Part shown: in pieces, positions 9,207 to 60,176 of the stretch | Layout: each line of letters begins with the position of its first letter | Numbering within the stretch: position 1 is the first letter of the stretch | From: an uncultured Candidatus Saccharibacteria bacterium | GTDB taxonomy: Bacteria > Patescibacteriota > Minisyncoccia > Phycocordibacterales > PCTT01 | Direction of reading: 5' to 3' | Length of the DNA stretch: 62,357 bases | NCBI GenBank assembly: GCA_964566505.1 | Contig: CAZMIM010000004.1 | Span: 1 to 62,357, forward strand | Notes under the pieces: model-generated | Databases searched by the model: none | What the model was told of the DNA's origin: nothing | Seen by the model: only the letters and a program-made list of their open reading frames with translations | Program-made: the position numbers and the translations under genes

Positions 9207-9228
9207 AACTCCGTTTAAACGGAGTTTT
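9205..9228. terminator. bidirectional hairpin between convergent genes
   Basis: aaaactccgt-ttaa-acggagtttt: perfect 10-bp stem with A- and T-tracts, spanning both stop codons. Confidence 0.6.
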
Positions 9229-10108: not shown

Positions 10109-10143
10109 GTGGATAAAGCCGAGATATGAGTATCCACAAAGCC

Positions 10144-10182
10144 AAATCCGCCAAATGCAAATGATTTGCATTTGGCGGATTT
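10144..10182 (-). terminator. 39-nt perfect palindrome downstream of gatB (palindrome family 2)
   Basis: aaatccgccaaatgcaaat-g-atttgcatttggcggattt, lying between the gatB stop (10204) and the next gene start (10108). Confidence 0.6.
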
Positions 10183-39671: not shown

Positions 39672-42600
39672 TTAGTTGGTTTGAGGGGTTGTTGTGGCTG
39701 TAGTTTCTGGAGCTTCTGTGGTTTCTACGGTTTCTGTAGTTTCTGTTGTGCTCTCTTCCTCTGTAGTCTCTTGCGAAGCAGGAGTTTCTTCTGTGCTCTC
39801 CTCTACAACTTCTTCAGTTATTACTTCTGCTGTAGTGGTTGCTGTATCCTCTGTAGTTTCCTCTTCTATTACAACTTCAGGTGTTGTTGTGGCTGTCTCT
39901 TCTGTAGTCTCTTCGATAGTTACCTCAGGCGTTGAAGTTGCTTGCTCTTCTGTGCTCTCGTCCTGCGTAGCCTCTGGCGAAGCAGGAGTCTCTGGAAGCT
40001 CTATTGGAGTATCAACTGAAGCTTGCTCTTGCTCTGGTGCTTGCTCTGTTACCTCTGGAGTCTCTTCCTCCACCGTTGCAAGACTATCAAGTGTTCCTTC
40101 TCCAACAATCACGATTCGGTCAACTCTTGCCTCTTCCCCGCTTTGTCCAACTGCCTTGTATGTGATTCGGTATGTTGTATCAAGTGACGTGTCGATTGAA
40201 ACTTGAGCCATCTCTACTCCGTCTACAAATACTGTGTATCCAAGCTCGTTTCCTGTCTCTGTGTCCACTACTCGAGCTCCCATGTCTGAGTACGTTGAGC
40301 CCTTAGCGATTCGTGATGGGTTTACTCCATTTAGTGTAATCTCTGGTGCAAGATTATTTACTACCACACCGCTCTCTTGTGTTTCTTCGTCTTCTACCAC
40401 TACAAGCTCACACTCACCAGCCTCTGAAACCATTGCTCCATTTCGAAGTACTACACAGTATGCGTCTCCTGTTTCTTGATCATAAAGTGTGATTCCTGAT
40501 GGTCGCTCTGGTGTACCTACTGTCAATGTATCTGCGAATAGGTTTGTGAAGTATGCGAATCCATTCTCGATTCGTGCTCCGAGGCTTTGTAAGAAGCCGA
40601 GGAGCGCGTCTTTGAATCCTGTTGTGAATGTTGCCACTGTTGTTGTAGCTGTTGATGTCGCAGTTGAAGTAGAAACTTCAAATACTCCTACAGCAACAGT
40701 TGATGTTGCTACAGAGCCACTTAGCTCGGCAACTTGGGCCTCAAGGTCTGTAAGTCGTGTGTCGAGTGCCTTCACAGCAGATAGTGTTACTGTTGTGAGC
40801 TTGTATAGGTCTACTCCACGACCATCAAGTGATAGAACTTCTGAAGGAGCTTCTTCTGCAATAAGTCCCATGAATCGTGTATCCTTTGTGTTTGTTGATG
40901 TATTGATGCTTGAGCCGTTGATATTTGCTTCATCATCAGAATATGAGTTTGTAAGGCCATCATGTCGTTGCTTGTAGTTGTATGTTGCAACCTTCATTGC
41001 TCGTATAGACTCAAGTGCGTGGTCATAATCAGAGTCAGCAAGATATTCAATATCTTCTTTTTCATCTCGAGTAGAGATATTTACAAATGACTGCGCTGCT
41101 ACATCTCCCATAACATGAAGGTCATATTCTGGTGTTGTAGTACCAATTCCGATTCGTCCTTCAGAGTCTACAAACACTTGTGATGTTACAAAGTTGTATG
41201 TATCAAGAACGAATACTTCGATAAGGTTGTCTGTGCTTCCGCTATTGTATGCTTCAAGTGCTCGAGCAATTACTCGTCCAGAATTTACCTGCTTCATAGC
41301 AACACCTGACTCACTTGAAAGCACAAGATAGTCACCAATCTCAATATCTCCTCCTTCTAGATTTACCTTCAAAGGCACACGACCTTTAAGGGCTACTGGC
41401 ACAGAATTTCCAATTTTCTGCCCAAGAAGGATACCTGGTTTTGTAGACACTATTCCCAAAACATCATCTCCTGCATGCGCTCGTCTTACAAGACCGACAA
41501 CATTCCCTGAAGTTGTCGCTGTATTAAGCGCAACCACTTCTCCAGCAGACAAGGTTGTGTCGAGTGTTGGGTAGTTCTCAGCAAGGTCGATTGCCGTTAC
41601 TGATGCAGACTCTGAATATATATAGCCTCGCGTACGAGATGTATCAGAGCAGTTTTCACCATTGTCATCTACGCACAAGAAGCCTTCGTTTATAACAACG
41701 TCTGAACCAGCATGTATCCTCCCAGAGACCATTAGACTCTCAACTCCTGTTGATACGCCCTTGTAAAACACTTCAAGCCACACAACATCTATATAGTGAT
41801 TTTGTGTATTACTATTGTCCAAAACGTACAAACTGATTCCGAAACCACTATTCTCTACATCTGCCTCAGAAATTGTTGTTCCCCAAAGACTATTTTCGGA
41901 ACCAGCAGTTTTTTCAGTGAATGTCGTATTGAGAACTCCAAAATATTCCGCAGTACCTGCAGCTGAACCAGCCTTCATAATTTGTGCATGCAATTGTGCG
42001 GTGGCTGCACTTAGTGAATAACCTTGTACATACGCCTTTACTCCAGTAACCGTAGCACCATCTGGTATAGAAATTCCAAAATCTGTAACCTCCAGTCTGT
42101 TTGATTGGTTTCCTACAGCAGGTGTTGCTTGTGTGTATGATACATCATCGAGCTGGGCATTTGATGGACTAGACCAAGCATATGAGCCTCCTCCGTCTGC
42201 AAAAGAACCTCCTGTTTTTTTGTTTGTGGTTAATTCAAACTGCGGTATAGCGGAAATGGTTGTGTATACATCGTCATGAGAAAGAGAAATACCTGATGTT
42301 GTTGTCGCTGAGCCTGATCTTCCAACAACAGACATTACCTCTGATGTTGGTGTCTTGTAAAAGACTTCAAGCCATACAACATCTACATAGTGATTTTGTG
42401 TATTACTATTGTCCAAAACGTACAAACTAATTCCGAAACCACTATTCTCTACGTCAGATTTAGAAATTGTAGTGCCCCACATGCTCGTAACGTTTTTTGT
42501 TGAGAGACTAGTATTAAAGATCCCAAAATATTGCGTAGTACCCGCCGCTGATCCTGCTTTCATAATTTGTGCATTAACCTGTCCAGTAGCAGCGGATTGT

Positions 42601-45600
42601 GAATACCCTAAAATAGAAGCTTTAACCCCAACAACCTCAGCATCTGCTGGCAAAGAGAAGTTGAAGTCGGTCAACTCAAGCCTGTTTGATTGGTTTCCTA
42701 CAGCAGGCTGTGCCTGTGTGTACGATACGTCGTCTTCTTTAGCATTTGACGGGCTTGACCAAGCATATGAGCCACCTCCATCTGCAGCTGAGCTAGCAAC
42801 AGATCTCTTAGTTGTTAGTGTTCCAGAGAATGAGCTAGTTGCGTGGAATAAACTTATATTATTATCAAATGTACCAACTCGAATACCATTTGAAATACCT
42901 GAACCATATACATTAAGTTGTGTTTCTGGTGTTGATGTTCCGATTCCTACGCTTCCTGTATCAAAGTAAATATCACTTCCATTTTGTGACCACAGTCCTC
43001 CAAGCGAGCCCCATGCTGAACCATTGTATCCTTCAAATCCGCTTGTTGTTGTGTTGTATCGGATAGTTCCAGCGTATCCTGTTGGACGTTGTGCTGTTGT
43101 ACCTACTGGAATCACCATACCGTCAGTCCCGTGTACAGAAAATGTTACATGTGGTGATGTTGTTCCTACTCCTAAATTACCTCCATTGAAGTATGAAGCT
43201 CCCGCAGTTTGAATATCGACATCTGCATTGTTCCCAGAATCATAAATTCTAAACCTGTTGTTAACACCACCATTAAATCCAAGATTTGTGTCACCTGACA
43301 CTGTTGTCATGTTTAGAGAACCACTTGAGTTTGAACCAAGAGTTACAAAGTTTCCTGCTGAATATGTAAGTTTAAGTTGCTGTGCTGTATCTGCAATTGT
43401 AAGTGCGGTGTCTGGAGTTGTGGTTCCAACACCAACATATCCATTACCAGCACCGTTGAGCACAAGGTTGTCTGTATTGTGGTTCATCTCTATGAAGGTG
43501 TTGTTGAGGGTTCCTGAATCGTTTTGTGACTGAATCTTTGATGTACCTCCGTTGATTTGGAAGTTTATTGTTTTTTCGTTTGATGTGCCTCCAGAGTCAT
43601 AGAGTATAAGTCCTGCTGATTGTGACCCTTCTGCATAGAAGCGTCCGTCTGTATTACCTGTACCTATTGCTACTCCATCTTCTGTGCCACCGTCGAATAC
43701 CCAGGATAGTGAAGCGTCACCTGATATAGAAAGCTTTGTGTCTGGTGAGGTGTTTCCTATACCGACGTTGCCATTAGAATCAATTCTCATTGATTCATTT
43801 GCATTTCTGTACACACCACTTGCACCTGTACCAAAGACTATGTCGGCGTAAGCACCTATAAATAAATCAGTGTCATTATAAATACCAAGACCTACAACAT
43901 TATCTGCACCGTCAGATGTTCGAGAAAAACCAATAGCTCCTCCAGATGAGCTGTAATCTGAAATATTAGAGAGGGTTCCTAGTGTTGAGATGGTAACATT
44001 TTCATTACTTGCTACTTGAACATCAAGTGTGGCGTCTGGACTTCCCGTACCTATTCCCACATCACCTCCAGAATATGAGTTCAAAAGAAGATCTGTCGCA
44101 TCTATTCTAAGGTTTTTGTATGTATTATCTGCATCGTTTATTGCCCAGATTCCTTCAAATGATCCTAGTGTACCTATCTTAAGTTGAGAGTCGGATACTC
44201 CGGAGTCGATATGGAGCTTTGATTCTGGAGATGCTGTGCCAATACCTAGATAACCCTCTTCTGTAAGGCGCATTCTCTCATTTGAAGCAGCAACTTTGTT
44301 TGCATCATTTGTCCCATCTACAAACCAAACAAAATCTCCGAGCCCGTTTCCTGTTACACCTCCCGCCTCAAAACCAAAGAATGCCTTCACAGGGTTTGAC
44401 CCTAGCGCATAACCTGTTCCAACATATCGTGTCGATGCATATGTATCATGTTGGAGCACGAGGCCTTCATCTACATCAAACCCTCCTGTGTATAGGCCAA
44501 TTTCTGCGTTTGAGTTTGCAGATGCGTGTGTTGTTATTTGACCTGATACGAGTGCATTGCCTGCAAAAGTAGCATTCTGTGACGAGTCAAGTGTAAGTGC
44601 ATCTGCATCTCCTGACTGTAGAACAAGTGCGTCAGTAGCGTGATTGTATTCAATTCCTCCTGCGTAGTTGTCTCCTTCATCTGCAAACATCAAGTAACCA
44701 ATATCTGAGCTGGTTGTAAGAACAGAAATTGCAGCAGAAGTATTATCCTCTACTCCAATTCGTGAAAGGCTGTGGAATGCACCTCCTGATGCACCTGCAT
44801 ATACCTCAAGCTCTTGTCCTGGTGTTGTAGTTCCAATACCAACATATCCTGTTGTGTTTTTAATAGTAAGTGCGTCTGTAAGGGTTGGTGCACCTGAGCC
44901 TGTTGAGTGTCCTGTTCGGAAAATAAGGTCTGTACCATCACCATCTTCTGCAATAGCCTCAATATCAGCCATAACACCTGTGCTTCCTGTAGATGCGTCT
45001 GATGAATAGAACTGAATCTTTCCAATTGTATTATCTGTTGTGACTGTTGTGTCATCTGTTGAAAGAGTGAATACAGCGCCATCTGTATCTGCAACTGAAA
45101 GCTTTGTAAGTGGTGAAGTGGTTCCGATACCTACCCGCTCATTCTGGATTCCCCCTGAACCGTCTGACTCTGCGTATACGGTAAGGATTGGGTTTGCATC
45201 TATTTGTGCTGAATAGCTTTGTACTGTTGCAGCTGCCGCAGCTGATGTTACTGGTAAATCTACCCAAGAAACGATTCCTGCGTTTGTATCAAATGAAAGT
45301 GCTCCGAGTTCTACATTGTCGATAGATGTAACACCTGATGAGAAGTCGTGTGTAAATGCTCCACTGTCGATTACCAATCCACCATTGAATGTAGATGTTG
45401 CTGTGGTTGATGTAGCTGTAAAATTCTCTGCTACGACCTCCCCTACTACTGAAAGTTTTGCGTATGGAGATGTAGTTCCAATTCCAACATTTCCGCCATC
45501 CAAAACAGTCATAGAATAAGACAAAGTCCCTCCGCCGTCCCAGCTTGTTCCCCCGCCAAAATATATGCTGCCATTAGCAGCAGCAATTGCTGAAGGATTG

Positions 45601-54600: not shown

Positions 54601-57600
54601 ACTCGGTTTGTAGAGTAGTCATATACCAACCCTGAAGTCTCGACTGCAAATCCTCCTGCAAATGTAGATGTTGCGCTTGTAGATGTAGCTGTGAAATATG
54701 GAGCCTCAACAAAGCTATATGATGTGAGTTTGCCTGTTGTTGTTGCTGCGCCACCAAATGAAACATCTCCTGTAAATGTAGAAGTGTCTCCAATGCTTGC
54801 AACATATCCCGCTGTTGAACCATCCGCTGAACCTCTGTAAATCTCAAAACCAAGTGAAGACTGATCATTATCAGTATCTATATACACACGAGCTGGACCA
54901 CCAGAAACAAGCCTAAACTCACCGTCAGATGTATTTGAAGATGCATATGTGTATACAGAAGATGAGTTAAGGCGTAACTCCTCCAACGCAGAAAGAATTA
55001 CTTGACCAGCAAAAGTGGCATCCTGTGAGCTATCTATTGTAAGAGCTGCTGTGCCTCCTGTTACCAAAGCAAGTGAGTCGGATGCATCTCCTCCAAGTCC
55101 TGTGTCTAGGTCTGCGGAACGAGGAACAAATGATGGAGTAGTGAGTGAGGCTCCGCCACCACGGATGTAACCACCTCCTCCTGTTGGAGAAAGAACATTT
55201 GAGATAAACACCCACTGATTTGAACCAGCCAAGCTCACTCGAAGGTTGTCGTCTGCGCTTTCATAGAATCCTGTGTCACCATCTCCAAATGCGATTGATG
55301 GAGTAGCTGCATCGTTTACTGTTGGTACTAAAAGTGAGTTTGTGGCTGTGGCTGATGTAGCAACAAAATCAGATGCAACCACTTGCCCCACTACAGATAA
55401 TTTTGCATACGGACTAGATGTTCCAATACCTACATTTCCTGCCCCAGTAACAGCAAGACCTACGTTGCTTCCTGAGTAATCTCTTACAAGAAGTGAGTAT
55501 GTTGAGTTTGTATTACCCGCATCAATGTTTACACCGTATCCTCCAGAAGAATCATCATTTTCAAATCGGGCGATGTAATCATTATCAACTGTTGCATCTA
55601 CATCAAGCCTGAATGAAGGATTTGCTGTACCGATTCCTACATTTCCATCAGCTCCTACATTGAACAGATTGTTGCCAGAGAAGTCTCGAAGTCGTAGAAG
55701 GTCTGCCGTTTGTCCTGATGTCCCTTCGATATCGAGCGTAACGATTGTTGTAGTTGAGTTGTCGTTTTGAAGATTGATTGGTTGGTTGAAGTCGAATCGT
55801 TCTGTGCTTGAATCCCATGAAAGCACTGCGTTTGGAGATGAAAGTCCTCGGTAGAATACAAATGACATGTCCTCTGTGTCTGCTGTAGGGTTGTCTGCGT
55901 TTAGTGTGAATGTTGAGTTGTTTGTTCCTGAGATTGTTGTAGAAGAAACAGAAAGGTTATTTACGTTAAGTTCATTGATGAAGCCAAGTTGCCAATATTT
56001 TGCTGGTGAACCAAGGTCGTATGTGTTGTTTGCACTTGGCACAAGGTCTGACTCTACCTCACCTGTGAGTGTAAGTGTGTCTGCTGAAGTATCCCCAAAT
56101 GCCACGCTTCCTAGTACTGTGAGGTCACCATTGAATGTTGAGGTTCCTGTGGTTGATGTGGCAACAAAATATGGAGCCTCAACAAAGCTGTATGATGAAA
56201 GCTTTCCTGTAGTTGTAGCTGCACCTTGTGCCAAAAGATCGTTATGGATTGTTGTGTTTCCATCTGTTCCGATTGTGATATCTGCTCCAGCAGAAGCTCT
56301 AAGGATAAGGTCGTTGTATCCAGAGCTTGTGATATCACGACCAATAACTTCACCATATCCTGACCCTTGTGTTATATCCACACCATCTGTTGCTGTTCCA
56401 AAGAGCCCTCGAAGTGATGTCAGTGTCCCTGTAGTTGAAAGATTTTCATTTCCAAATGAAATTGATCCTGTTGAATCTGTTATAGAACCAGTGGCAATTG
56501 AAAGTGTGTCGATAAGCGCTGATGATGTTGCTGTCAGTGTTGATGAAGTAAGTGAGCCATCAAAGTATCCATTTCCTGCAACTGAGAACAATGCAAATGG
56601 TGATGTGGTGCCAATACCAACATTTCCTGAAGAATCAATTGTTAGACGCTCTGTTGTTGCCGTCCACAAACTCAAACTATTTTCTAAATTGTCATATTGC
56701 ACAAGGCCAGCTTGACCAGAAACCGTGTCTCCCAAACCAATTTGAGCTAATCCTGATGTCCCTGAAATAATTTGAATTTCTGCATTTGTAGAACCAGCCC
56801 CACTATTTTGGAATATAGCAACAGTTGGAGAATTTCCTAAAACAGGAGTACCTGAGGTAAGCACGTTCAATGTTTTTGTAGGACTAGCAGTACCAATACC
56901 TACTCGATTTGTTTGATAGTCATATACCAACCCTGATGTCTCTACTGCAAACCCTCCTGCAAAGGTGCTAGTTGCTGTGGTTGATGTTGCGATAAATGAA
57001 GAAGCTGTTACCAAACCATCAAAGATACCGCTTCCTGCAACACCAAGTCGCGCACCCGGTGTTGTACTTCCAATACCAAGAAATCCTCCCGTTGTGAGAG
57101 TCATTTGTTCTGAACCTGAAACATTAAATCCGTAATCGAGAGCATCAAATGTACCGTTTGCATAAACAGAACCTCCAGTGTTGTAGAACTGGAATGTGCT
57201 TGCTGTCCTTATCACACCGGGTACATCAAGTGCTTGCCCTGGTGTGTCTGTACCAATACCTACTCGGTTGTTGATTGAGTCTACATAGAGCGTGTTTGAA
57301 TCAACTGCCAAGTCTCCTGCAAAAGTTGATGTTGCAAGTGTAGAAGTGGCTGTGAAATATGGAGCCTCAACAAAGCTGTAAGATGAAAGTTTTCCTGTGG
57401 TTGTGGCTGTACCAGCAATCAAGCTTGTGATGTATGCATTTGTTGTAGTAGCTGTTGTAAAGAAGCTATCTGTTGCGCGCAAATTAGTTGCAAATGCATT
57501 TGTAGTGGTTGCATTGGTTGTGGTGCTATTTGTTGCTGTGAGGTTTGTAGCAAAACTATTTGTTGATGTAGCGTTTGTAGTAGTTGCATTTGTAGCAGTG

Positions 57601-59561
57601 AGATTTGTCAGGATACCAGTGATGCCTCGAAGAACGCTTGTGTAGATGTTTGTAGAAGTTGCATTTGTTATAGTCGCTCGTGTTCCTGTGAGGTCTGTAA
57701 TTGTTCCTGCGGTTGCATCAAGTCGTGAGGTAAATAGGTTTGTTGAAGTCGCGTTTGTAGTAGTGCTGTTTGTGATGAGCGCATTTGCAAGTGTTGCTGT
57801 ACCTGTTGCTGTGAGGTTGGTCGCTGTGAATCCTCCTGTGATGAATCCGCTTCCGTCGATTGAGAGTGTTGTGAATGGTGATGTAGTTCCAATTCCCACT
57901 CGGTTGTTGATTGAATCTACATAGAGCGTGTTTGTATCAAATGCAACATCACCTGCGATTGTTGATGTTGCTGTTCCTTGCACGATAAGTTGCTGACCAA
58001 CAGTGAGGTCTTGTGTGAAGATTCCAAATGTTCCTTGGAAGTTTGAGATGTTGTCGATTTGTACATCATGAAGTGTTCCTCCGTGGATTGTTGGGTTGTA
58101 GATTTGTGTATCGATGAGCTGATCGATTGAGTTTGTGAGTGACACTGTTTGGTACACAGTTCGAGTCTCATAATCGTTTGTTGCTGTTCTGGTGTATAGC
58201 TCTGCAAAAACTTTATTTGAAAGCTGTTGGATGCGTTGCTCAAGCTCTGCCCGTGTTACAGCAGAAGGACTTGAAACCTCTGTAATTCGCTCTACAACTC
58301 GCTCTGGTGTAGCTTGTACCACGATAGTTCTTGGTGTCTGTGGCGCTGTAGAAGACTCTACAGGAGCCTCTGAAGTACTTGTAGCGTCTTGAGTTCCGAG
58401 TTCTGAGCTCCGAGTTCTCTGAGCTATGATTCGCTCTCTAGCCTCATCAAGATTTTGATAGATTGTCAGCTCTGTTGGTGTTACATCTTCGTTCTCGCTT
58501 CGGAAAAGGCTTTGGATTGCACTATAGATTCGTAGTGATGCTTTACCAATTGCTCCATCTGCATCGTGTATAGCAGCTACTAATACTTGTGAATCAAGAT
58601 TTATATCTGTTGGCACCTCAACTCCCTTGAATATTGCTGTAGCAACTTGTGCGTTCTCTTTGAATGAATCAACAACTACTGCAACAACCCCCTTTGTCTT
58701 GATGTCTTCTGTTACAACACTGGCTACAAACTGAGCTGTTTGGAAAGTTTCTGTTGCGATATTTTTTGCTTTTTCAAATCCTGCTTGTGCAAGCTTTGGA
58801 TTCATAACACCAAGAACTGGAAAAGCTACAACTGCAGTTACCAAAACAGACGCCACCAATGTCTTTACCGGTGAAGTACTTTGATACGGCGATGCGATTG
58901 AGTGAGTCTTTGCTGGAGCATCTGTATCTTCTACTGCTACAGACGAATGAACTGCTGGGATAAGTGCGTACTCTGGCTTCTCGATTGAAAGTGGTTGTGC
59001 CTTTTCCTGTGGAGCAACCTTTGGAGTTTTTGGAGTTACCACTGACTCAACCTTCTCTTCCACAACAGCCTCTGTCTTAACTTCCTTCTTCTCTGGCTCA
59101 ACCTCCTGTGCTACAGGAGTGTCTATGTCGTCGCTCTTTTGAGTTTGTGCATACCCAAGCACATCACTCTTTGATACAAATCGTGTTCGTCCTACAAGAG
59201 TTGATGAAAGAGCACCTTTCCGAGCAAGTTGTCCAACATAGTCTTGTGAGTACCCTGTGATAGCTGCAGCCTCTTTGGTAGAAATAAACTCTTCTCCATT
59301 TACAGCCAGGTCATCATTTGTATTTTCGCTACCGTATGCAAGCACATCTCCTTCGTGCACAAAGCGAGTACCTCCAACCATCTTGGTTCGGATGACTCCT
59401 TTGCGAGCAAGCTGTCCCACATAATCAGAAGTGAAGCCGGACAGGAGTGCGGCTTCTTTTGTTGAAATATATCTTTGACCTTTGTGCTCTATTGAGTCTT
59501 TCACGATGTATATATTGTATGGAGCATCATCAAAAATATGGCTTATTTCTGTGGACAACAT
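39672..59561 (-). CDS. giant (6,629 aa) membrane-anchored surface fibre protein: 2x HTH - TM - tail-fibre-like repeats - S74 chaperone-like domain - Ig-like domain - acidic T/E tail
   Basis: A single uninterrupted 19,890-nt ORF. The motif GNVGIGTxxPxxxLxV recurs about 45 times by eye count. See the sub-features and findings. Confidence 0.85.
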   Translation of the reverse strand: MLSTEISHIFDDAPYNIYIVKDSIEHKGQRYISTKEAALLSGFTSDYVGQLARKGVIRTKMVGGTRFVHEGDVLAYGSENTNDDLAVNGEEFISTKEAAAITGYSQDYVGQLARKGALSSTLVGRTRFVSKSDVLGYAQTQKSDDIDTPVAQEVEPEKKEVKTEAVVEEKVESVVTPKTPKVAPQEKAQPLSIEKPEYALIPAVHSSVAVEDTDAPAKTHSIASPYQSTSPVKTLVASVLVTAVVAFPVLGVMNPKLAQAGFEKAKNIATETFQTAQFVASVVTEDIKTKGVVAVVVDSFKENAQVATAIFKGVEVPTDINLDSQVLVAAIHDADGAIGKASLRIYSAIQSLFRSENEDVTPTELTIYQNLDEARERIIAQRTRSSELGTQDATSTSEAPVESSTAPQTPRTIVVQATPERVVERITEVSSPSAVTRAELEQRIQQLSNKVFAELYTRTATNDYETRTVYQTVSLTNSIDQLIDTQIYNPTIHGGTLHDVQIDNISNFQGTFGIFTQDLTVGQQLIVQGTATSTIAGDVAFDTNTLYVDSINNRVGIGTTSPFTTLSIDGSGFITGGFTATNLTATGTATLANALITNSTTTNATSTNLFTSRLDATAGTITDLTGTRATITNATSTNIYTSVLRGITGILTNLTATNATTTNATSTNSFATNLTATNSTTTNATTTNAFATNLRATDSFFTTATTTNAYITSLIAGTATTTGKLSSYSFVEAPYFTATSTLATSTFAGDLAVDSNTLYVDSINNRVGIGTDTPGQALDVPGVIRTASTFQFYNTGGSVYANGTFDALDYGFNVSGSEQMTLTTGGFLGIGSTTPGARLGVAGSGIFDGLVTASSFIATSTTATSTFAGGFAVETSGLVYDYQTNRVGIGTASPTKTLNVLTSGTPVLGNSPTVAIFQNSGAGSTNAEIQIISGTSGLAQIGLGDTVSGQAGLVQYDNLENSLSLWTATTERLTIDSSGNVGIGTTSPFALFSVAGNGYFDGSLTSSTLTATSSALIDTLSIATGSITDSTGSISFGNENLSTTGTLTSLRGLFGTATDGVDITQGSGYGEVIGRDITSSGYNDLILRASAGADITIGTDGNTTIHNDLLAQGAATTTGKLSSYSFVEAPYFVATSTTGTSTFNGDLTVLGSVAFGDTSADTLTLTGEVESDLVPSANNTYDLGSPAKYWQLGFINELNVNNLSVSSTTISGTNNSTFTLNADNPTADTEDMSFVFYRGLSSPNAVLSWDSSTERFDFNQPINLQNDNSTTTIVTLDIEGTSGQTADLLRLRDFSGNNLFNVGADGNVGIGTANPSFRLDVDATVDNDYIARFENDDSSGGYGVNIDAGNTNSTYSLLVRDYSGSNVGLAVTGAGNVGIGTSSPYAKLSVVGQVVASDFVATSATATNSLLVPTVNDAATPSIAFGDGDTGFYESADDNLRVSLAGSNQWVFISNVLSPTGGGGYIRGGGASLTTPSFVPRSADLDTGLGGDASDSLALVTGGTAALTIDSSQDATFAGQVILSALEELRLNSSSVYTYASSNTSDGEFRLVSGGPARVYIDTDNDQSSLGFEIYRGSADGSTAGYVASIGDTSTFTGDVSFGGAATTTGKLTSYSFVEAPYFTATSTSATSTFAGGFAVETSGLVYDYSTNRVGIGTASPEKELHVDGGIALTNNKYLWWDDAGGTLRNIIGLDNNDDLIIRNPVGDTAFTSGNVGIGTTTPNSLLHLEANGPVLALGSSGSNDPRVDFYDQETTTIGASMFLDNSADVLRILRTASGSATDGIAIDASGFVGVGTTSPTREFQVEGSGNVYAKVNASAGNDSALELGGSAALWTLLNEGSSSGDFKIRNSSGTALTIDTSSNVGIGTTSPIGKLNVYSGASGLGSAHTDADDLVVENSGNSGISVYSPDANNSYLAFGSPSDTFGAKLVWDYDGDLFRIGSEKTGASTSIISGNGTVALTLDSSQDAAFAGNLSIPSADNLYLDGGSNTYLTESAADTIQLVTGGSYRFQVGNSYVAIPATNNLYLDGGSNTYIEESSADVISLYAGGSRGAFVTSNGMGVDATDQLWLDGAGDTYLYESSANTVQVVTGGTTALTLDSSQNAIFAGDVTVPYGSRMFVYGTGTYDANYFEGGTQSLALKREGGSSLVSFDFSDLSTTFAGTLETADDITIDSSFPQLHLEGDSTTFRLENESSDFQITETGVGTHLSILTNSGKVGIATVTPTVLLTVGSSTPDSIATANQYNSAYISGDLEIDGTLYSDGSLSLTGTFLAADGSESAPAYSFSADTDTGIYRGGTDNLALVAGGQDFITLNETTQDELIINNDGDDIDFRVEASGVTDALFVQGSSGNVGVGTTNPSSELQVGDGSNATSPEFRIYGDANDTDDSFGSVIFQNDAGTTGANTGEGHIVAERNADKDGTNLNFKLSNSIGVLNSRLYIDGDLGNVGVGTTTPEYLLDVDGDFRAGEAGSTNAIFVDATAGTALIDNDLTLTSGSITSASGAISFGDEDLSTTGTFASGSATFSGSVDITFTSSDQYGFSWTEPGSQTGYLYTDVTGTGFSLNGTSGFGGGDASMYANSSSGDLSIWAETGGDVRLRGPSSLEGNTSITGTLDVSGLLTVTDTIYARATASNTVDVSPSSGIYEFVGDGAYYGIRQGTDNSFNIDVYNGGSDVNAFKIEQDANATFAGDVTLSAGDLDVSGSATASNFIADSATATSTFAGGFAVETTGLVYDYSTNRVGIGTASPDTRLHIERDANGGDVALTIASTNYNNTADTASLIFEGYDNQTAGKIVSGRSSAYTEAAGSADSFLAFYTSDGGSDSEHLRIDKDGNVGIGTASPSALLDVAGSTEIDSDLTLASGSITSASGAIDFGNENLSTDGRVDVANARLESNYLVQLASNSSLVISGDQATNAGANLTLYGGSHATVASDVRWRAGTGTILYYDHSAGEWDFQAKNITTTGTLDAGVATINGGTTDNAFEVVSTDANVRLRMTDSDATGSLLYTGSTDTFSLGSNTSITGALDVSSSATASNFIADSTSATSTFAGGFAVETSGLVYDYSTNRVGIGTASPARALHTVGYIRAADSSSTLDYVELSHDGTDADLRSNRGDLTLATQTDIEFTAGDSGVDAIITSAGNVGIGTTSPLNNLHVYDGSSNANGTLRVGGDRSSRGVLLGYEAIGSGRGGLSLTNTSGGSNNYFSFGFGDISGGLPATEVMTFNQSGDVGIGTSTPDETLVINHASDSTLKLRRDDTAIFEDDIIGAIDFETTDTGNPGVSARILGIAESGAPKVGLQFQTGEDGSLVDALRIDETGNVGIGTTSPREKLEIDNGDLLINNGTINASWAYSINRPILWGTTDGTFIASTDNSATDGIKFRSYTGSDLMTILDSGNVGIGTTTPDVLLDIEGAAAELRIRDTGTTQSVIRFYDTVTDEIAAVKGLSADSSLVLEANGTEVMRLVGGNVGIGTTTPNALLDVYGASSKIKIDASSGNPELQFSDGSTDEFSLYYDTGSDYFVFSEDGIGSRMVINGGNVGIGTSNPQNPLEIETTNKLGSTFTGGTDGEGLRVTQTDYSDGNYISLIEASYDDISNTPDVRVGARFTSSGSYLAFGTSNNYGTGITNTALTIGHQGNVGIGTTNPLQKLAVSNGGDEGVEVVPGTTSGASTIQSYNRGDSSYDTLRFDALNYEFDNSGSNIITIDSSGRMGINTETPSEKLEINVGSSDNDRGLQINQADTGEWAAQFDTVDYGLEIRSDDTGSIPVLSLSGNGGSTPIFEALANGNVGIGTTSPKGAFHVDSNAGAAGYAAVINNDTNSSTYNGLLLSTVANDASTYPLRIRSNTYTPTNLSTGSDLFVVTGAGNVGIGTTTPQDALHVAGDIRIDLTGYTASAGSNDLKFYGTTSGSIANDQASIRSAAYPTNTNGGNLEFYTSNTSSTLTRRMIIDGAGNVGIAETSPSSKLHVLDSANTLTLEKSAGGYFNSYGFDGNDPFLTYYAGSGMTLGYGSSTGNAPTVDTLFLANDGDVGVGQTSPQYQFHVTGTATTSAVFHRKSSNLTTDAVGIGFAQRNDTSAGITSDVRAGIYSQYNGDLYLSAGSGVSDLDTDPLTYARIFIEGSGGNVGIGTSAPASPLHISSASNISPNSSGTGHLQITGSGYAGYITLDGNAMNIGHNSGSRDLRFQTNETDRVTITETGLVGIGVTDPASKLEIAGGALRFSGSGTFGSGTDSGIYNPNTNDLSFVTNGNRVMDVTSAGNVGIGTSSPGARLEAVSAGSGNYPFITTYDGTYSYNDMLQVYQDGAEGILRLKDSGGTTEVQFGTNTSNYITGGNFGVGDSTPDAPLDVESSSSGLAIFNGTGTYGGYIQFEKGGTAEAYLGTRYHLVSNTAGYEEDTTLRAQGNLSFTTGGGTERLFINTSGNVGIGDNTPDAQLEVNKSWYSGSKSLILNNSNSANATHVSYDTMLIQQDDVPTIRLREESVSPQEMTFAVGNEYSNSATIGTTGSLYFATGRSAGIAGYTNTNWRMVVDSTGNVGIGTTTPEQSLEISGGTRHLAVSSLDSPTSGKGIEVQYRIDGSNDYGYIQTYDRDASSFKNLRIDASNLILNSASAGNVGIGTTTPPDNLSVYNSSNTRLSLSSGSGAPAILIGNMDSAGAGNPSAIAAANGSIYFGGGTSWDGGGTLSYSMTVLDGGNVGIGTTSPYAKLSVVGEVVAENFTATSTTATSTFNGGLVIDSGAFTHDFSSGVTSIDNVELGALSFDTNAGIVSWVDLPVTSAAAAATVQSYSAQIDANPILTVYAESDGSGGIQNERVGIGTTSPLTKLSVADTDGAVFTLSTDDTTVTTDNTIGKIQFYSSDASTGSTGVMADIEAIAEDGDGTDLIFRTGHSTGSGAPTLTDALTIKNTTGYVGIGTTTPGQELEVYAGASGGAFHSLSRIGVEDNTSAAISVLTTSSDIGYLMFADEGDNYAGGIEYNHATDALVLQSGDADALTLDSSQNATFAGNALVSGQITTHASANSNAEIGLYTGGFDVDEGLVLQHDTYASTRYVGTGYALGSNPVKAFFGFEAGGVTGNGLGDFVWFVDGTNDANKVAASNERMRLTEEGYLGIGTASPESKLHIDSGVSDSQLKIGTLGSFEGIWAINDADNTYKNLRIDATDLLLNSYSGGDVGIGTGSPDATLDVQVASNENVTISTLGTLSNISDYSSSGGAIGFSRTSDGADNVVGLGIYNDTDLFIGAYADIVFGTGASGVYRNANESMRIDSNGNVGIGNTSPDTKLSISGDASLSWVFDGGTEDGVAIGTGNTDGRFYAEGSQSAGLILYDSGGTSNEKTINFQINGGTSKIQSQNDSGTLNNTFIEMNHNTDNLVLNGAGNGYVGVGTTTPDTALTIADTAQQLKLTYSAGNFVTLGSNSSGSLNMTTVSGDTNLGFNGGVNNRFRIYDSGNNADVDIQTAGASYFNGGNLGVGTTSPHVTFSVHGTDGMVIPVGTTAQRPTGYAGTIRYNTTTSGFEGYNGSAWGSLGGLWSQNGSDIYFDTGSVGIGTSTPETQLNVYGSGISNGIRVGTFDNNISLFHATSSFSGTLTTKRSVASSAADGGGSYAWSSPSNAKEDDVSYTQAQPAVGNQSNRLELTDFNFSLPADAEVVGVKASILGYSQSAATGQVNAQIMKAGSAAGTTQYFGIFNTSLSTKNVTSMWGTTISKSDVENSGFGISLYVLDNSNTQNHYVDVVWLEVFYKTPTSEVMSVVGRSGSATTTSGISLSHDDVYTTISAIPQFELTTNKKTGGSFADGGGSYAWSSPSNAQLDDVSYTQATPAVGNQSNRLEVTDFGISIPDGATVTGVKAYVQGYSLSAATAQLHAQIMKAGSAAGTAEYFGVLNTTFTEKTAGSENSLWGTTISEADVENSGFGISLYVLDNSNTQNHYIDVVWLEVFYKGVSTGVESLMVSGRIHAGSDVVINEGFLCVDDNGENCSDTSRTRGYIYSESASVTAIDLAENYPTLDTTLSAGEVVALNTATTSGNVVGLVRRAHAGDDVLGIVSTKPGILLGQKIGNSVPVALKGRVPLKVNLEGGDIEIGDYLVLSSESGVAMKQVNSGRVIARALEAYNSGSTDNLIEVFVLDTYNFVTSQVFVDSEGRIGIGTTTPEYDLHVMGDVAAQSFVNISTRDEKEDIEYLADSDYDHALESIRAMKVATYNYKQRHDGLTNSYSDDEANINGSSINTSTNTKDTRFMGLIAEEAPSEVLSLDGRGVDLYKLTTVTLSAVKALDTRLTDLEAQVAELSGSVATSTVAVGVFEVSTSTATSTATTTVATFTTGFKDALLGFLQSLGARIENGFAYFTNLFADTLTVGTPERPSGITLYDQETGDAYCVVLRNGAMVSEAGECELVVVEDEETQESGVVVNNLAPEITLNGVNPSRIAKGSTYSDMGARVVDTETGNELGYTVFVDGVEMAQVSIDTSLDTTYRITYKAVGQSGEEARVDRIVIVGEGTLDSLATVEEETPEVTEQAPEQEQASVDTPIELPETPASPEATQDESTEEQATSTPEVTIEETTEETATTTPEVVIEEETTEDTATTTAEVITEEVVEESTEETPASQETTEEESTTETTETVETTEAPETTATTTPQTN
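39675..40090 (-). repeat. Thr/Glu-rich acidic low-complexity C-terminal tail
   Basis: Repeats such as TPEVTIEETTEETATTTPEVVIEEETTEDTATTTAEVITEE, with matching imperfect nucleotide tandem repeats. Confidence 0.8.
40100..40349 (-). other. Ig-like (DUF5011-type) domain
   Basis: APEITLNGVNPSRIAKGSTYSDMGARVVD...YRITYKAVGQSGEEARVDRIVIV. Confidence 0.5.
40718..41075 (-). other. Peptidase_S74-like intramolecular chaperone / autoprocessing domain (aa ~6163-6281)
   Basis: S-TRDEKEDIEYL...ALESIRAMKVATYNYK...FMGLIAEEAPSEVL...LYKLTTVTLSAVKALDTRLTDLEAQV follows the SDxRxK...Y.YK...GxIAQE...coiled-coil pattern of endosialidase and tail-fibre chaperone domains. Confidence 0.6.
41760..42950 (-). repeat. tandem duplication of a ~195-198-aa module inside the giant ORF
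   Basis: DGGGSYAWSSPSNA...NSGFGISLYVLDNSNTQNHY(V/I)DVVWLEVFYK occurs twice. The period is 594 nt at the module ends and 585 nt at the starts. The shadow ORFs at 41815 and 42409 begin with identical 16 aa. Confidence 0.85.
58803..58865 (-). other. the single predicted TM helix of the giant ORF (aa 233-253)
   Basis: KTLVASVLVTAVVAFPVLGVM. It is the only long hydrophobic stretch in the N-terminal region that I read closely. Confidence 0.6.
59151..59474 (-). other. two tandem excisionase/MerR-like HTH domains (aa 30-76 and 91-137 of the giant ORF)
   Basis: YISTKEAALLSGFTSDYVGQLARKGVIRTKMVGGTRFVHEGDVLAY and FISTKEAAAITGYSQDYVGQLARKGALSSTLVGRTRFVSKSDVLGY. Confidence 0.6.
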
Positions 59562-60146: not shown

Positions 60147-60176
60147 AAAACAACAAAAAACACTCCTTGCGGAGTG
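60147..60176 (-). terminator. rho-independent terminator ~300 nt downstream of the hydrolase-like gene
   Basis: The minus strand reads cactcc-gcaa-ggagtg followed by ttttttgttgtttt. Confidence 0.55.

What the first reader, a model, noticed from the sequence alone, without database searches (positions are those of the whole stretch)
39672..59561. 6,629-aa ORF: cytoplasmic tandem HTH + one TM + ~6,300-aa extracellular fibre with ~45 GNVGIGTxxP nodes
One uninterrupted 19,890-nt ORF takes up 32% of the window. After the N-terminal HTH pair and a single TM helix, the protein is S/T/G/N/A-rich. The motif G-N-V-G-I-G-T-[TSA]-[ST]-P-x3-L-x-V recurs about 45 times by my eye count, at irregular 60-250-aa spacing. 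On the opposite strand it shows up as recurring VVPIPTFP in the shadow ORFs. This motif together with an S74-type chaperone domain is what I associate with phage tail-fibre and endosialidase-like trimeric fibres. Here it is concatenated to an extreme length in a cellular gene and fused to DNA-binding-type domains. I do not know a described family with this overall architecture. In an episymbiotic CPR-like cell it is a strong candidate for the host-attachment or contact structure.
Basis: partly seen in the sequence, partly recalled or inferred. Interest (0 to 1): 0.85.

Follow-up and report, generated by a model that had tools for sequence, protein, structure and literature searches.

The report
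Membrane-anchored giant phage-fibre-like surface protein
This is a real 6,629-residue gene of an ultrasmall CPR (Paceibacteria-type) bacterium that joins two cytoplasmic DNA-binding-type domains and one membrane helix to a very long phage-tail-fibre-like surface fibre; it is the longest member found here of a widespread family that I did not find described in the papers searched, and it is a plausible tool for gripping host cells.

Summary
ORF 39672-59561 (-) is uninterrupted and encodes 6,629 aa, with two excisionase-type HTH domains, a single TM helix (aa 235-253) and 45 GNVGIGTxxP nodes (0.05 expected by chance).

The nodes match the capping-loop motif of triple-beta-helix fibres. The only solved relatives are Bdellovibrio MAT fibres, and cyano- and pelagiphage tail fibres are sequence relatives. 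An S74 chaperone domain keeps its Ser6163/Lys6168 pair, although its Pfam score is sub-threshold. A conserved Ig-like domain and an acidic tail follow it.

The architecture is not unique:
- 51 of the 150 listed relatives start with the same HTH type.
- 9 of those 150 also carry S74, at 1,293-6,629 aa.
- A Campbellbacteria genome holds a positional orthologue.
- In 66 of 80 Patescibacteria (CPR) genome loci, a small 2xHTH-TM gene just downstream of gatB is followed by a long HTH-TM fibre gene.

Best reading: an N-in/C-out anchored trimeric fibre of roughly 0.2 µm, folded from its C-terminal chaperone and used for cell-cell attachment. The ligand of the HTH domains is unknown. No paper found describes the family.

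Verdict: new variant of a known kind; interest 0.62.

The parts
39672..59561 (-). Whole gene: 6,629-aa single-pass membrane protein (stop codon 39672-39674)
   Evidence: The sequence is identical to database protein P0111. Coding periodicity is uniform.
59322..59486 (-). HTH unit 1 (aa 26-80), excisionase/MerR-type winged helix, predicted cytoplasmic
   Evidence: Pfam HTH_17; TIGR01764; AF2 pLDDT above 90; local family HMM domain E 1.5e-20.
59127..59303 (-). HTH unit 2 (aa 87-145)
   Evidence: In Foldseek the tandem pair is closest to TraN of pIP501, Xis, RacA and BldC.
58860..59126 (-). Charged V/E/P/K-rich linker (aa 146-234), predicted disordered
   Evidence: AF2 pLDDT below 55; composition.
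58803..58859 (-). The only transmembrane helix (aa 235-253), acting as a signal anchor with N-in/C-out topology
   Evidence: Kyte-Doolittle 2.49, the only segment above 1.4; helix 234-251 in the AF2 model. Family members have K/R-rich N-side flanks.
57906..58802 (-). Juxtamembrane region and conserved neck (aa 254-552; includes 'ERVVERITEV...ELEQRIQQLSNKVFAELY')
   Evidence: In the exhaustive HMMER search with aa 150-560 (312 representatives at E <= 1e-3), most listed matches fall in the part corresponding to aa ~390-560. Collinear alignment to family members.
42840..57905 (-). Fibre shaft (aa 553-5574) with 44 of the 45 capping-loop nodes. It also holds recurring modules: TTGKLSSYSFVEAPYF x3, ATSTFAGGFAV-type x6, SGSITSASGAIxFGxExLSTTG x3, LYLDGGSNTY x3.
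   Evidence: PHROG tail-fibre families up to E 1.8e-41. PDB relatives are Bdellovibrio MAT fibres 8ond, 8ol4 and 8ojn. Phage tail fibres at 25-32% identity.
41742..42839 (-). Tandem pair of ~190-aa orphan domains (aa 5575-5940); candidate distal binding module
   Evidence: Internal duplication at 72-91% DNA identity. No Pfam or PDB match. Only one weak homologue among 5.8 billion proteins.
41187..41741 (-). Conserved beta domain (aa 5941-6125), of the phage cement / phi29 gp12 pre-neck-appendage type
   Evidence: AF2 pLDDT 75-96. Foldseek hits: 3suc at 1.5e-4 and a BFVD pre-neck appendage protein at 3e-11. Sub-threshold Phage_cement_2 and Peptidase_G2. This is the best-conserved block in the C-terminal homologues.
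41076..41186 (-). Last capping-loop node (aa 6126-6162), directly before the predicted cleavage site
   Evidence: Aligns to the capping loops of the 8ojn chain (consistent with Bd3182 residues 632-782) and to the MyRF ICA domain.
40692..41075 (-). S74-type intramolecular chaperone / autoprotease domain (aa 6163-6290) with Ser6163 and Lys6168; carries a ~24-aa insertion
   Evidence: Pfam 19.3 bits, below the cut-off of 22. PHROG 5555 and 17524. Ser and Lys are in register with 10 relatives and with MyRF. A local S74 HMM built from an alignment that includes this sequence (so not an independent test for it) spans 6163-6321.
40347..40691 (-). Post-S74 T-rich linker and small Cys-pair domain (aa 6291-6405)
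   Evidence: Conserved with P0225, P0185, P0186 and P0203.
40092..40346 (-). Bacterial surface Ig-like domain (aa 6406-6490)
   Evidence: Pfam PF16403 35.6 bits; AF2 pLDDT 88-95. Conserved at the same position in P0208, P0185, P0186, P0203 and P0225.
39675..40091 (-). T/E-rich acidic low-complexity tail (aa 6491-6629)
   Evidence: In the 141-residue tail from aa 6489, T 41 and E 39.
9227..10171 (-). Related gene elsewhere in the window: a small protein with one HTH of the same type, one TM helix and a ~130-aa tail. It lies directly downstream of Wzy-SecA-Obg-GatB. The probable start is the Met before 'DNQIFVEGKKYIS'.
   Evidence: family HTH HMM E 5.9e-25. In 75 of 80 related genome loci this position after gatB holds the small 2xHTH-TM gene, and in 66 of 80 a long HTH-TM fibre gene follows it.

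Best explanation
The gene encodes a type-II (N-in, C-out) membrane-anchored, homotrimeric surface fibre of a Paceibacteria-type (CPR) bacterium. It is built from the same parts as phage tail fibres and the Bdellovibrio MAT adhesins.

Steps shown by sequence and homology:
- Two excisionase/MerR-type winged-helix domains, with no signal peptide.
- One TM helix.
- A conserved neck.
- A ~5,000-aa shaft with 44 capping-loop nodes, spaced like single triple-beta-helix domains.
- A fast-evolving tandem tip module.
- A phage cement / gp12-like beta domain.
- A final capping loop, then an S74 chaperone domain with the Ser-Lys pair intact.
- A conserved Ig-like domain and an acidic tail.

Steps inferred:
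1. The chain is exported through Sec with the HTH pair left in the cytoplasm.
2. Three chains held by their N-terminal anchors are brought into register by the C-terminal S74 domain. The trimer then zips up from the tip towards the membrane.
3. S74 cuts at Ser6163 and frees the last 467 residues (chaperone, linker, Ig domain, tail).
4. The mature fibre is about 0.2 µm long if it is MAT-like throughout. That is as long as the cell is wide. It presents the tandem tip and cement-like domains for binding to another cell's surface, probably a host or partner.
5. The cytoplasmic HTH pair ties the base of the fibre to DNA, or to a conserved cytoplasmic partner such as the co-occurring small HTH-TM protein.
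For: Anatomy.

Fibre homology:
- PHROG tail-fibre families up to 1.8e-41.
- The only PDB sequence relatives are the MAT fibres 8ond, 8ol4, 8onf and 8ojn.
- Cyanophage and pelagiphage tail fibres at 25-32% identity over up to 93% of an 800-aa tile.
- The node matches the capping-loop motif V-G-G/N-pi-x-x-P-x-x-x-L. MAT beta-helix domains are 94-131 aa, against a median node spacing of 87 aa here (PMC10769870).

S74:
- Ser6163/Lys6168 are in register with the S/K of 10 relatives and with the MyRF ICA domain. The capping loop lies 15 residues upstream of the Ser, as in Bd3182.
- Relatives carry precomputed PF13884 hits or are named 'Peptidase S74 domain-containing protein' or 'Chaperone of endosialidase'.

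Tip region: Foldseek matches to phi29 gp12 and pre-neck appendage proteins.

Topology: a single TM helix and no N-terminal signal peptide. Relatives have basic N-side flanks.

Real gene under selection:
- A positional orthologue in a Campbellbacteria MAG. The neighbouring DUF4015 gene is 68% identical and the giant is 38% identical over 614 aa.
- Family members share both ends, with shafts of very different length: 1,293-4,705 aa.
- A conserved gene pair occurs next to gatB and secA in 66 of 80 loci.

Length estimate: 0.038-0.044 nm per residue, from Bd2133 and Bd3182 dimensions, times 5,610 residues.
Against: - No trimer model could be computed. The monomer AF2 model of the S74 region has pLDDT below 50.
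- Pfam S74 is below its gathering score.
- Cleavage, surface exposure, expression and any binding partner are untested.
- The protein is known from one assembly only.
- S74 domains are normally C-terminal, whereas here ~340 residues follow it. Part of that stretch, the Ig-like domain, is conserved, and its role is unexplained.
- An HTH pair is not needed for a simple anchor, so the model leaves the most unusual part without a demonstrated function.
- Held reviews attribute host recognition in this phylum to type IV pili and do not mention such fibres.
Confidence: 0.65

Rival explanations
1. Contact sensor or membrane-tethered regulator. The fibre reports contact or tension at the cell surface, and the cytoplasmic HTH pair changes its binding to DNA in response. 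This would be a one-component system like ToxR or CadC. Alternatively, proteolysis near the membrane would release the HTH pair.
For: - The HTH units are bona fide excisionase/MerR-type DNA-binding folds.
- They are net basic.
- Their recognition-helix motif DY(I/V)GQLAR is nearly invariant across proteins that are otherwise 25-30% identical. This argues for a conserved ligand.
- The same module is kept in 51 of the 150 listed relatives and in a co-operonic small protein.
Against: - No target DNA motif was found.
- The S74 protease lies outside the cell, ~5,900 residues from the membrane, so it cannot release the HTH pair as it does in MyRF.
- No site-2-protease-type partner was seen in the window.
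- A 6,400-aa ectodomain is an implausible sensor.
- HTH-TM proteins such as RodZ bind proteins rather than DNA (my own knowledge).
Confidence: 0.12
2. A structural envelope fibre, such as a coat, spacer or self-aggregation fibre. It would be a core cell-surface component of Paceibacteria and not a host-specific adhesin.
For: The HTH-TM fibre gene pair is conserved beside secA and gatB in 66 of 80 genome loci. That looks more like a housekeeping envelope component than an accessory adhesin. The window also has a large glycosylation cluster and an O-antigen-ligase-like gene.
Against: - C-terminal tips are highly variable. Only 2 of 15 complete partners end in S74, and the tandem tip domain here is an orphan. 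The giant evolves far faster than its neighbour (38% against 68% identity). This is the pattern of recognition proteins, as in MAT tip swapping (PMC10769870).
- Lengths vary 5-fold.
Confidence: 0.12
3. Delivery stalk of a polymorphic toxin or effector. The tail-fibre repeats would present a C-terminal cargo that is released by the S74 cut.
For: Tail-fibre repeats and releasing peptidases are known in polymorphic toxin systems (PMC3482391). S74 cleavage would free a 467-aa C-terminal fragment. A small membrane protein gene lies 55 nt downstream.
Against: - The post-S74 part contains an Ig-like domain conserved across the family, plus a low-complexity tail. It has no toxin domain in Pfam, NCBIfam or PDB.
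- The downstream PsbP_2-like gene is not seen next to relatives.
Confidence: 0.04
4. Assembly artefact or chimera: paralogous fibre genes joined in frame at repeated node sequences.
For: The protein is seen on one contig of one assembly only. Assemblies commonly break inside these genes: 44 of 59 long relatives run off their contig.
Against: - The longest exact internal repeat is 42 nt, and node repeats are only 60-77% identical at the DNA level.
- Codon-position GC is uniform over 19.9 kb.
- Both termini are collinear with complete relatives.
- The orthologue shares the N-terminal 614 aa and the same internal modules.
Confidence: 0.03
5. A phage or prophage tail-fibre gene carried in the contig.
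For: Shaft, tip and chaperone domains all have phage homologues. An IS200-type transposase-like gene lies nearby.
Against: - No capsid, portal, terminase or tail genes occur in 62 kb.
- An N-terminal HTH pair plus a TM anchor is incompatible with a virion fibre.
- The chromosomal position is conserved in another genome, next to a glycoside-hydrolase-like gene.
- The family is linked to secA and gatB.
Confidence: 0.02

Closest known systems
Bdellovibrio bacteriovorus MAT (mosaic adhesive trimer) fibres, S74 subgroup such as Bd3182 (Caulton et al. 2024, PMC10769870)
   Same: - Cellular, not viral.
- Phage-tail-fibre-like trimeric beta-helix shaft with the same capping-loop motif.
- Variable distal tips.
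- S74 chaperone/protease with an SxxxxK pair directly after a capping loop.
- These are the only solved-structure sequence relatives.
   Different: - MAT proteins are about 600-1,150 aa. They have a signal peptide and a conserved ~130-aa beta-rich N-domain that is thought to bind the predator's outer surface.
- This protein is 6,629 aa. It has no signal peptide and is anchored by HTH-HTH-TM in the cytoplasmic membrane of a CPR bacterium (CPR bacteria are proposed to lack an outer membrane).
- It continues ~340 aa beyond S74.
Phage tail fibres and spikes with a C-terminal intramolecular chaperone (K1F endosialidase, T5 pb1 L-shaped fibre; cyanophage and pelagiphage tail fibres)
   Same: Shaft sequence homology of 25-32%. 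PHROG tail-fibre families. The S74 domain. A phi29 gp12-like distal domain.
   Different: The protein is not part of a virion and has no phage genes around it. It is membrane-anchored and 3-10 times longer. S74 is not terminal.
MyRF (myelin regulatory factor), a eukaryotic membrane-bound transcription factor with an S74/ICA domain
   Same: One polypeptide combines a DNA-binding domain, a TM helix and an S74 domain preceded by the same capping-loop motif. MyRF 7dc3 aligns in register across the loop and the Ser-Lys pair.
   Different: - In MyRF the order is DBD-S74-TM, with both the DBD and S74 on the cytoplasmic side, so cleavage frees the DBD.
- Here the TM helix separates the HTH pair from S74 by ~5,900 residues, so cleavage cannot free the HTH pair.
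- The DBD type also differs: Ndt80-like in MyRF (my own knowledge), excisionase-type here.
TraN of the pIP501 type IV secretion system, and small excisionase/MerR-like DNA binders (Xis, BldC, RacA)
   Same: Tandem excisionase-type winged-helix units in one chain. TraN is the top Foldseek hit (E 1.9e-3, probability 1.0). Single units match with TM-scores of 0.6-0.73 normalised to the target.
   Different: These are small soluble cytoplasmic proteins with no TM helix or ectodomain. The E-values are modest and sequence identity is 16-25%.
Membrane-tethered HTH proteins (ToxR/CadC one-component regulators; RodZ)
   Same: Cytoplasmic N-terminal HTH, a single TM helix and an extracytoplasmic C-terminal part (my own knowledge).
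   Different: The HTH class differs (OmpR/PhoB type or Xre type, against excisionase type here). Their ectodomains are small sensor or scaffold domains, not a 6,400-aa fibre.
The HTH-TM-fibre family of Paceibacteria, not described in the papers searched (for example P0208 4,336 aa, P0185 4,705 aa, P0225 2,139 aa, OHA30752.1 2,440 aa)
   Same: The same N-terminal HTH type, TM helix and neck. The same C-terminal cement-like domain, S74 and Ig-like domain.
   Different: The window protein is the longest found. It has two HTH units, whereas most relatives have one; a few others have two (L006, L019, L024, L032, L034). It lies away from the gatB locus. Its tandem tip domain is an orphan.

Membership tests
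Peptidase_S74 / intramolecular chaperone auto-processing domain | Pfam PF13884 match at or above the gathering score | tested here: not met
   19.3 bits (18.7 in the other tile) against a cut-off of 22. A ~24-aa insertion splits the domain.
Peptidase_S74 / intramolecular chaperone auto-processing domain | Catalytic Ser and Lys five residues apart (SDxxxK-type motif), in register with known members | tested here: met
   S6163-T-R-D-E-K6168 aligns with the S/K of 10 relatives (SDxRxK types) and with the MyRF ICA 7dc3. The Asp at +1 is replaced by Thr.
Peptidase_S74 / intramolecular chaperone auto-processing domain | Capping-loop motif (V-G-G/N-pi-x-x-P-x-x-x-L) on a beta-helix just upstream of the cleavage site | tested here: met
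   GRIGIGTTTPEYDLHV ends 15 residues before S6163. It aligns to the capping loops of the 8ojn chain (consistent with Bd3182 632-782) and to MyRF (motif from PMC10769870).
Peptidase_S74 / intramolecular chaperone auto-processing domain | Trimerisation-dependent autoproteolysis | not testable with these tools
   This needs recombinant protein with S6163A and K6168A controls.
Peptidase_S74 / intramolecular chaperone auto-processing domain | The domain forms the C-terminal end of the precursor | tested here: not met
   About 340 residues follow it: a linker, a Cys-pair domain, an Ig-like domain and an acidic tail. The same holds in relatives, where 119-401 residues follow S74.
Bdellovibrio-type MAT fibre family | Beta-helical shaft with capping loops, homologous to solved MAT fibres | tested here: met
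   phmmer against PDB: 8ond (bd2133) at 8.9e-7, 8ol4 at 9.1e-6, 8ojn at 1.8e-5. No other solved fibre was detected.
Bdellovibrio-type MAT fibre family | Signal peptide followed by the conserved ~130-aa beta-rich N-terminal domain (all 21 MATs) | tested here: not met
   The N-terminus is HTH-HTH-linker-TM. There is no signal peptide, as the first hydrophobic segment is at aa 235.
Bdellovibrio-type MAT fibre family | Homotrimer with meandering chains | not tested
   No multimer prediction was available. The monomer model is uninformative for the fibre parts.
HTH_17 / excisionase-family DNA-binding domain | Profile match above the curated cut-offs | tested here: met
   Pfam PF12728 39.4 bits against 27, two stretches. 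TIGR01764 47.1 bits against 28.8, two stretches.
HTH_17 / excisionase-family DNA-binding domain | Winged-helix fold of the MerR/Xis type | tested here: met
   AF2 gives two units with pLDDT above 90 and a strand/helix-turn-helix/hairpin/helix order. Foldseek matches TraN, Xis, RacA, BldC and MerR-family proteins.
HTH_17 / excisionase-family DNA-binding domain | Binds double-stranded DNA | not testable with these tools
   The only indirect evidence is net positive charge (+3 and +1 here; family mean +3.5) and a conserved recognition helix.
Phage virion tail fibre | Encoded in a phage or prophage structural module | tested here: not met
   No phage structural genes occur in the 62-kb contig. The chromosomal neighbour is conserved in another genome.
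MyRF-like membrane-bound transcription factor | DNA-binding domain and S74 lie on the same side of the membrane, so that self-cleavage releases the DNA-binding domain | tested here: not met
   The TM helix (aa 235-253) lies between the HTH pair (aa 26-145) and S74 (aa 6163-6290).
Paceibacteria HTH-TM-fibre family (defined here, not described in the papers searched) | N-terminal HTH with the GKxYISxKxAAxxxGYxxDY(I/V)GQLxR signature, then a TM helix, then the 'ERV..E / ..EL..(K/R)(I/L)Q.L.N' neck | tested here: met
   Collinear BLAST alignments to P0225, P0188 and the L001 gene.
Paceibacteria HTH-TM-fibre family (defined here, not described in the papers searched) | Position directly after the small 2xHTH-TM gene downstream of gatB | tested here: not met
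   In the window only a small 1xHTH-TM gene follows gatB (9227-10171). The giant lies 30 kb away, next to a DUF4015 gene, as in the Campbellbacteria locus L006.

The most novel reading that the evidence does not exclude
The HTH-TM module is a class-wide device of Paceibacteria that physically couples DNA (the nucleoid, or specific sites) to the base of extracellular fibres. The giant fibre protein and the small HTH-TM protein would assemble through their cytoplasmic HTH domains on DNA. The two arrangements seen most often (small 2xHTH gene followed by a 1xHTH fibre gene; small 1xHTH gene plus a 2xHTH giant in the window) each add up to three HTH units, although other combinations also occur. 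Such an assembly could either anchor co-transcriptional, co-translational export of enormous proteins next to SecA, or let surface contact feed back on gene expression. This would be a new kind of link between chromosome and cell surface in episymbiotic bacteria.
Probability: 0.18. Interest if true: 0.82.

Novelty: new variant of a known kind. Interest (0 to 1): 0.62.

Why it matters
Almost nothing is known about how Paceibacteria/Parcubacteria find and hold their hosts. These are a large group within the CPR with few cultured members. Held reviews credit only type IV pili.

This gene belongs to a conserved family of fibres related to phage tail fibres and to the prey-recognition fibres of Bdellovibrio. 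The family is linked to secA and gatB, and its tips are variable.

That gives concrete, testable candidates for host recognition: tip domains that can be expressed and screened, and an S74 cut that can be assayed. It also offers a possible marker for host range in metagenomes.

The fusion of DNA-binding-type domains to the cytoplasmic end of a surface fibre is not explained by any known system. It is conserved across dozens of species-level genomes, so it probably has a function.

Practically, the family also explains recurrent contig breaks in these MAGs (44 of 59 long relatives run off their contig).

Tried and rejected
Searches that led nowhere:
- A genome-contig scan with the single N-terminal protein found nothing. 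The window's genome is therefore not among the species representatives.
The small-protein alignment A1 worked, but small proteins dominated its results.
- No tRNA and no Rfam family was found in the window.
- No sigma-70-like promoter was found in the 0.9-kb upstream spacer.
- NCBIfam has no model for the fibre.
- The tandem tip domain gave no Pfam hit, no PDB hit and one weak homologue.
- The monomer AF2 model of aa 5930-6500 is unusable for the S74 and linker parts.
- The conserved 18-nt spacer block has no second copy in the window or in the loci.
- Literature searches for this architecture in CPR found nothing.

Readings considered and rejected:
- Prophage fibre. There are no phage genes and the chromosomal synteny is conserved.
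- Repeat-driven misassembly. The longest exact repeat is 42 nt and coding periodicity is uniform.
- MyRF-type release of the DNA-binding domain. The topology is wrong.
- Polymorphic toxin. There is no toxin domain and the C-terminus is conserved.
- A link to the nearby VirD4-like ATPase and type IV secretion. Such ATPases are common orphans in CPR genomes. The TraN similarity is only at the level of fold.

Full report
**1. The observation**

The ORF at 39672-59561 on the minus strand is real. It starts with ATG, encodes 6,629 codons and has no internal stop. It covers 31.9% of the window. The protein is rich in T, G, S, A and N.

The strict heptad GNVGIGT occurs 18 times. A relaxed node pattern occurs exactly 45 times between aa 553 and 6135, with a median spacing of 87 aa. 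Shuffled sequences of the same composition give a mean of 0.05. The 'VVPIPTFP' shadow on the other strand is the trivial reverse reading of this motif.

Node copies are only 60-77% identical at the DNA level, and the best internal repeat is 91% over 126 nt. The longest exact repeat is 42 nt, and codon-position GC is uniform over the 19.9 kb. I see no sign of repeat collapse or frame errors. However, the protein is on record from a single contig, and that contig is the whole window. Independent confirmation is therefore lacking.

**2. Anatomy from N- to C-terminus** (coordinates checked)

- Two excisionase/MerR-type winged-helix units, aa 26-80 and 87-145. Pfam HTH_17 scores 39.4 bits and TIGR01764 47.1 bits, both above their cut-offs. 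AF2 pLDDT is above 90. The closest folds are the tandem-HTH dsDNA-binding protein TraN of pIP501, then Xis, RacA, BldC and MerR-family proteins (modest E-values, high probabilities).
- A charged, disordered linker.
- The only hydrophobic helix of the protein, aa 235-253.
- A juxtamembrane region and a conserved neck, to aa 552.
- A shaft of about 5,000 aa carrying 44 nodes and several recurring module types.
- A tandem pair of ~190-aa domains, aa 5575-5940. These have no Pfam or PDB match and one weak homologue in 5.8 billion proteins.
- A well-modelled beta domain, aa 5941-6125. It resembles phi29 gp12 and pre-neck appendage proteins and phage cement proteins.
- A last node.
- An S74-type chaperone domain, aa 6163-6290.
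- A linker with a Cys pair.
- A Bact_surface_Ig-like domain, aa 6406-6490.
- A T/E-rich tail.

**3. What the fibre part is**

PHROG tail-fibre families match the shaft with E-values down to 1.8e-41. Cyanophage and pelagiphage tail fibres match an 800-aa tile at 25-32% identity.

The only solved structures detectable by sequence are the Bdellovibrio bacteriovorus MAT fibres: 8ond, 8ol4/8onf and 8ojn. The paper on those fibres (PMC10769870) defines the motif V-G-G/N-pi-x-x-P-x-x-x-L as the capping loop on the edges of trimeric beta-helix domains of 94-131 aa. It notes that the motif also occurs in MyRF.

The median node spacing of 87 aa fits one beta-helix domain per node.

Using the published dimensions (135 aa for 6 nm; 370 aa for 14.2 nm), 5,610 residues would give roughly 215-250 nm. 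This is an extrapolation that assumes the whole shaft is MAT-like.

**4. The S74 domain**

The Pfam score is below the cut-off (19.3 against 22) because of a ~24-aa insertion. Nevertheless, Ser6163 and Lys6168 align with the catalytic pair of ten relatives and of the MyRF ICA domain. The capping loop sits just upstream, as in Bd3182.

Relatives carry precomputed PF13884 hits, or the names 'Peptidase S74 domain-containing protein' and 'Chaperone of endosialidase'.

Unlike in phage and MAT proteins, the domain is not terminal. Between 119 and 401 residues follow it across most of the family, usually including the Ig-like domain.

**5. The architecture recurs widely**

An exhaustive HMMER search with aa 150-560 found 312 representative clusters. 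Of the 150 listed, 51 begin with the same HTH type, most of them with a detectable TM helix, and the search match falls in their neck region. Nine contain both HTH and S74 in one chain, at 1,293 to 6,629 aa. Several share both termini with the window protein, for example P0225 (2,139 aa), P0208 (4,336 aa) and P0185 (4,705 aa). Named members come from Candidatus Taylorbacteria, Paceibacterota and the Parcubacteria group.

The N-terminal 520 aa alone hit only ~300-aa proteins, mostly from Kaiserbacteria. These have two HTH units, one TM helix and a short tail.

In a scan of species-representative genomes, 123 of 148 pattern matches were confirmed as relatives by tblastn. The 80 kept loci are MAGs that are mostly labelled as Patescibacteria lineages; a few carry only 'bacterium' or 'uncultured bacterium' labels. 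Within those 80 loci:
- gatB lies immediately upstream of the small gene in 75.
- secA lies within 10 kb in 65.
- In 66, the small gene is followed on the same strand by a long gene that starts with one HTH of the same type.
- 44 of the 59 long genes run off the contig end (first seen).
- Of 15 complete partners, 13 have node motifs but only 2 end in S74. Tips are therefore variable, as in the MAT family.

**6. The window's own arrangement**

The window keeps Wzy-SecA-Obg-GatB followed by a small gene with one HTH and one TM helix (9227-10171). Its fibre gene lies 30 kb away and carries two HTH units.

The best genomic relative is a Candidatus Campbellbacteria MAG (L006). It has the same relocated arrangement:
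- A DUF4015 glycoside-hydrolase-like gene that is 68% identical to its window counterpart.
- A ~1-kb non-coding spacer.
- A giant with two HTH units that is 38% identical over the first 614 aa and shares the same internal modules. It runs off the contig after 1,536 aa.

The gene is therefore chromosomal, vertically conserved and fast-evolving.

**7. Mechanism**

Shown:
- The domain order.
- A single TM helix with no signal peptide.
- Homology of the shaft, tip and chaperone to trimeric phage and MAT fibres.
- An intact Ser-Lys pair.
- Conservation of both ends across very different shaft lengths.

Inferred from established knowledge of S74 fibres (endosialidase, T5 pb1, MAT):
1. The chain is exported with the HTH pair left inside the cell.
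2. Three chains are registered by the C-terminal chaperone and fold from the tip towards the membrane.
3. The chaperone-containing C-terminal fragment (467 aa here) is cut off.

The attachment role rests on three things: the analogy with MAT and phage fibres, the rapid evolution and orphan nature of the tip, and the CPR lifestyle. It is untested.

The HTH pair is the unexplained part. It is basic. It has a nearly invariant recognition-helix motif, DY(I/V)GQLAR. It is kept in both the small and the large proteins. It could bind DNA, as its homologues do, or it could bind a conserved protein. S74 cleavage cannot release it, so the MyRF mechanism does not apply.

**8. Rivals and novelty**

A prophage origin, misassembly, a toxin stalk, a pure regulator and a purely structural coat were considered. 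Each is less well supported; see the rival entries.

I found no paper describing this family in CPR bacteria. The fibre kind itself is known from phages and Bdellovibrio. I therefore rate it a new variant of a known kind: a cytoplasmic-membrane-anchored, HTH-headed, extremely long version in CPR bacteria.

Interest is moderate to high. This is mainly because the family is conserved across many Patescibacteria genomes, offers testable host-recognition candidates and has an unexplained fusion of a DNA-binding-type domain to a surface fibre.

Noticed in passing
window 9227-10171 (-), with 10204-18166 upstream on the same strand: A small gene (one HTH of the giant's type, one TM helix, ~130-aa tail) lies directly after Wzy_C/TPR-SecA-Obg-GatB. 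In 75 of 80 related genome loci the gene after gatB is a 2xHTH-TM protein, and in 66 of 80 a long 1xHTH-TM fibre gene follows it. In that commonest arrangement and in the window the small and large genes together hold three HTH units; other combinations occur.
   Followed up: partly
L006 about 11000-12400 (Candidatus Campbellbacteria PCTT01000012.1); also P0227 in L005:8001-15323: The orthologous giant in L006 carries an intein inside the fibre shaft. It begins 'CVAGDT', ends 'VAHNT', and scores 37.6 bits on PF14890 against a cut-off of 35.8. The insert is interrupted by N runs. The Taylorbacteria family member P0227 also has an Intein_splicing hit. The window's gene gave no intein match in the tiled Pfam scan.
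   Followed up: partly
window 59562-60480; conserved block at 60257-60274: A 0.92-kb stretch with no convincing ORF lies between the DUF4015 gene and the giant. This is long for a compact CPR genome, and L006 has a 1.0-kb counterpart. The two share a 16-nt block, TAGATATTAGGATTTA, set in TTAGG-like short repeats. There is no Rfam hit and no sigma-70-like promoter. A terminator-like hairpin lies at 60160-60177.
   Followed up: partly
window 38972-39616 (-): A gene 55 nt downstream of the giant encodes a 214-aa protein with an N-terminal TM anchor and a weak PsbP_2-like match (23.3 bits, below the cut-off). It may be co-transcribed. No equivalent was seen next to relatives in L004 or L005.
   Followed up: partly
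window 38209-38904 (-) and 35619-38228 (-): An IS200-type Y1 transposase-like ORF (PF01797, 43 bits) overlaps by 20 nt the start of an 869-aa protein with three Laminin_G_3 domains. A Laminin_G_3 protein also lies two genes downstream of the fibre gene in L005.
   Followed up: no
window 33575-35509 (-): An orphan VirD4/TrwB-like coupling-protein ATPase with no other type IV secretion genes in the window. The top fold match of the giant's HTH pair is TraN from a monoderm type IV secretion system. Orphan VirD4 homologues are common in CPR (bioRxiv 10.1101/2025.01.22.634366), so this may be coincidence.
   Followed up: partly
window 18189-31863: A large surface-glycan cluster. It holds five GT4-type glycosyltransferase genes, a GT47-like gene, a flippase-like Polysacc_synt gene, a B12-radical SAM gene, an asparagine-synthase-like gene, a methyltransferase, a sugar epimerase and oxidoreductases. 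An LTD+PKD surface protein lies at 31943-33520.
   Followed up: no
L004:7451-7696 and L005:7301-7555: In two other genomes, a separate 81-84-aa MerR/HTH_17 gene is transcribed divergently just upstream of the HTH-TM-fibre gene. The family HTH HMM found no such gene upstream of the giant in the window.
   Followed up: no
P0208 (L004:8001-21011), aa 3910-4045 and 4058-4198: This 4,336-aa family member has two S74-type domains in tandem before its Ig-like domain.
   Followed up: no
window 41742-42839 (-): The tandem ~190-aa domains near the tip are essentially orphan. They contain the longest exact DNA repeat of the gene (42 nt, at 41793 and 42387), which suggests a recent duplication.
   Followed up: partly
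loci L009, L010, L013 and many others: Many MAG records that carry this gene pair, otherwise seen under Kaiserbacteria, Paceibacterota and Parcubacteria labels, are titled 'uncultured Candidatus Saccharibacteria bacterium'. L009 is the same contig as L001. These automated labels may be unreliable.
   Followed up: no
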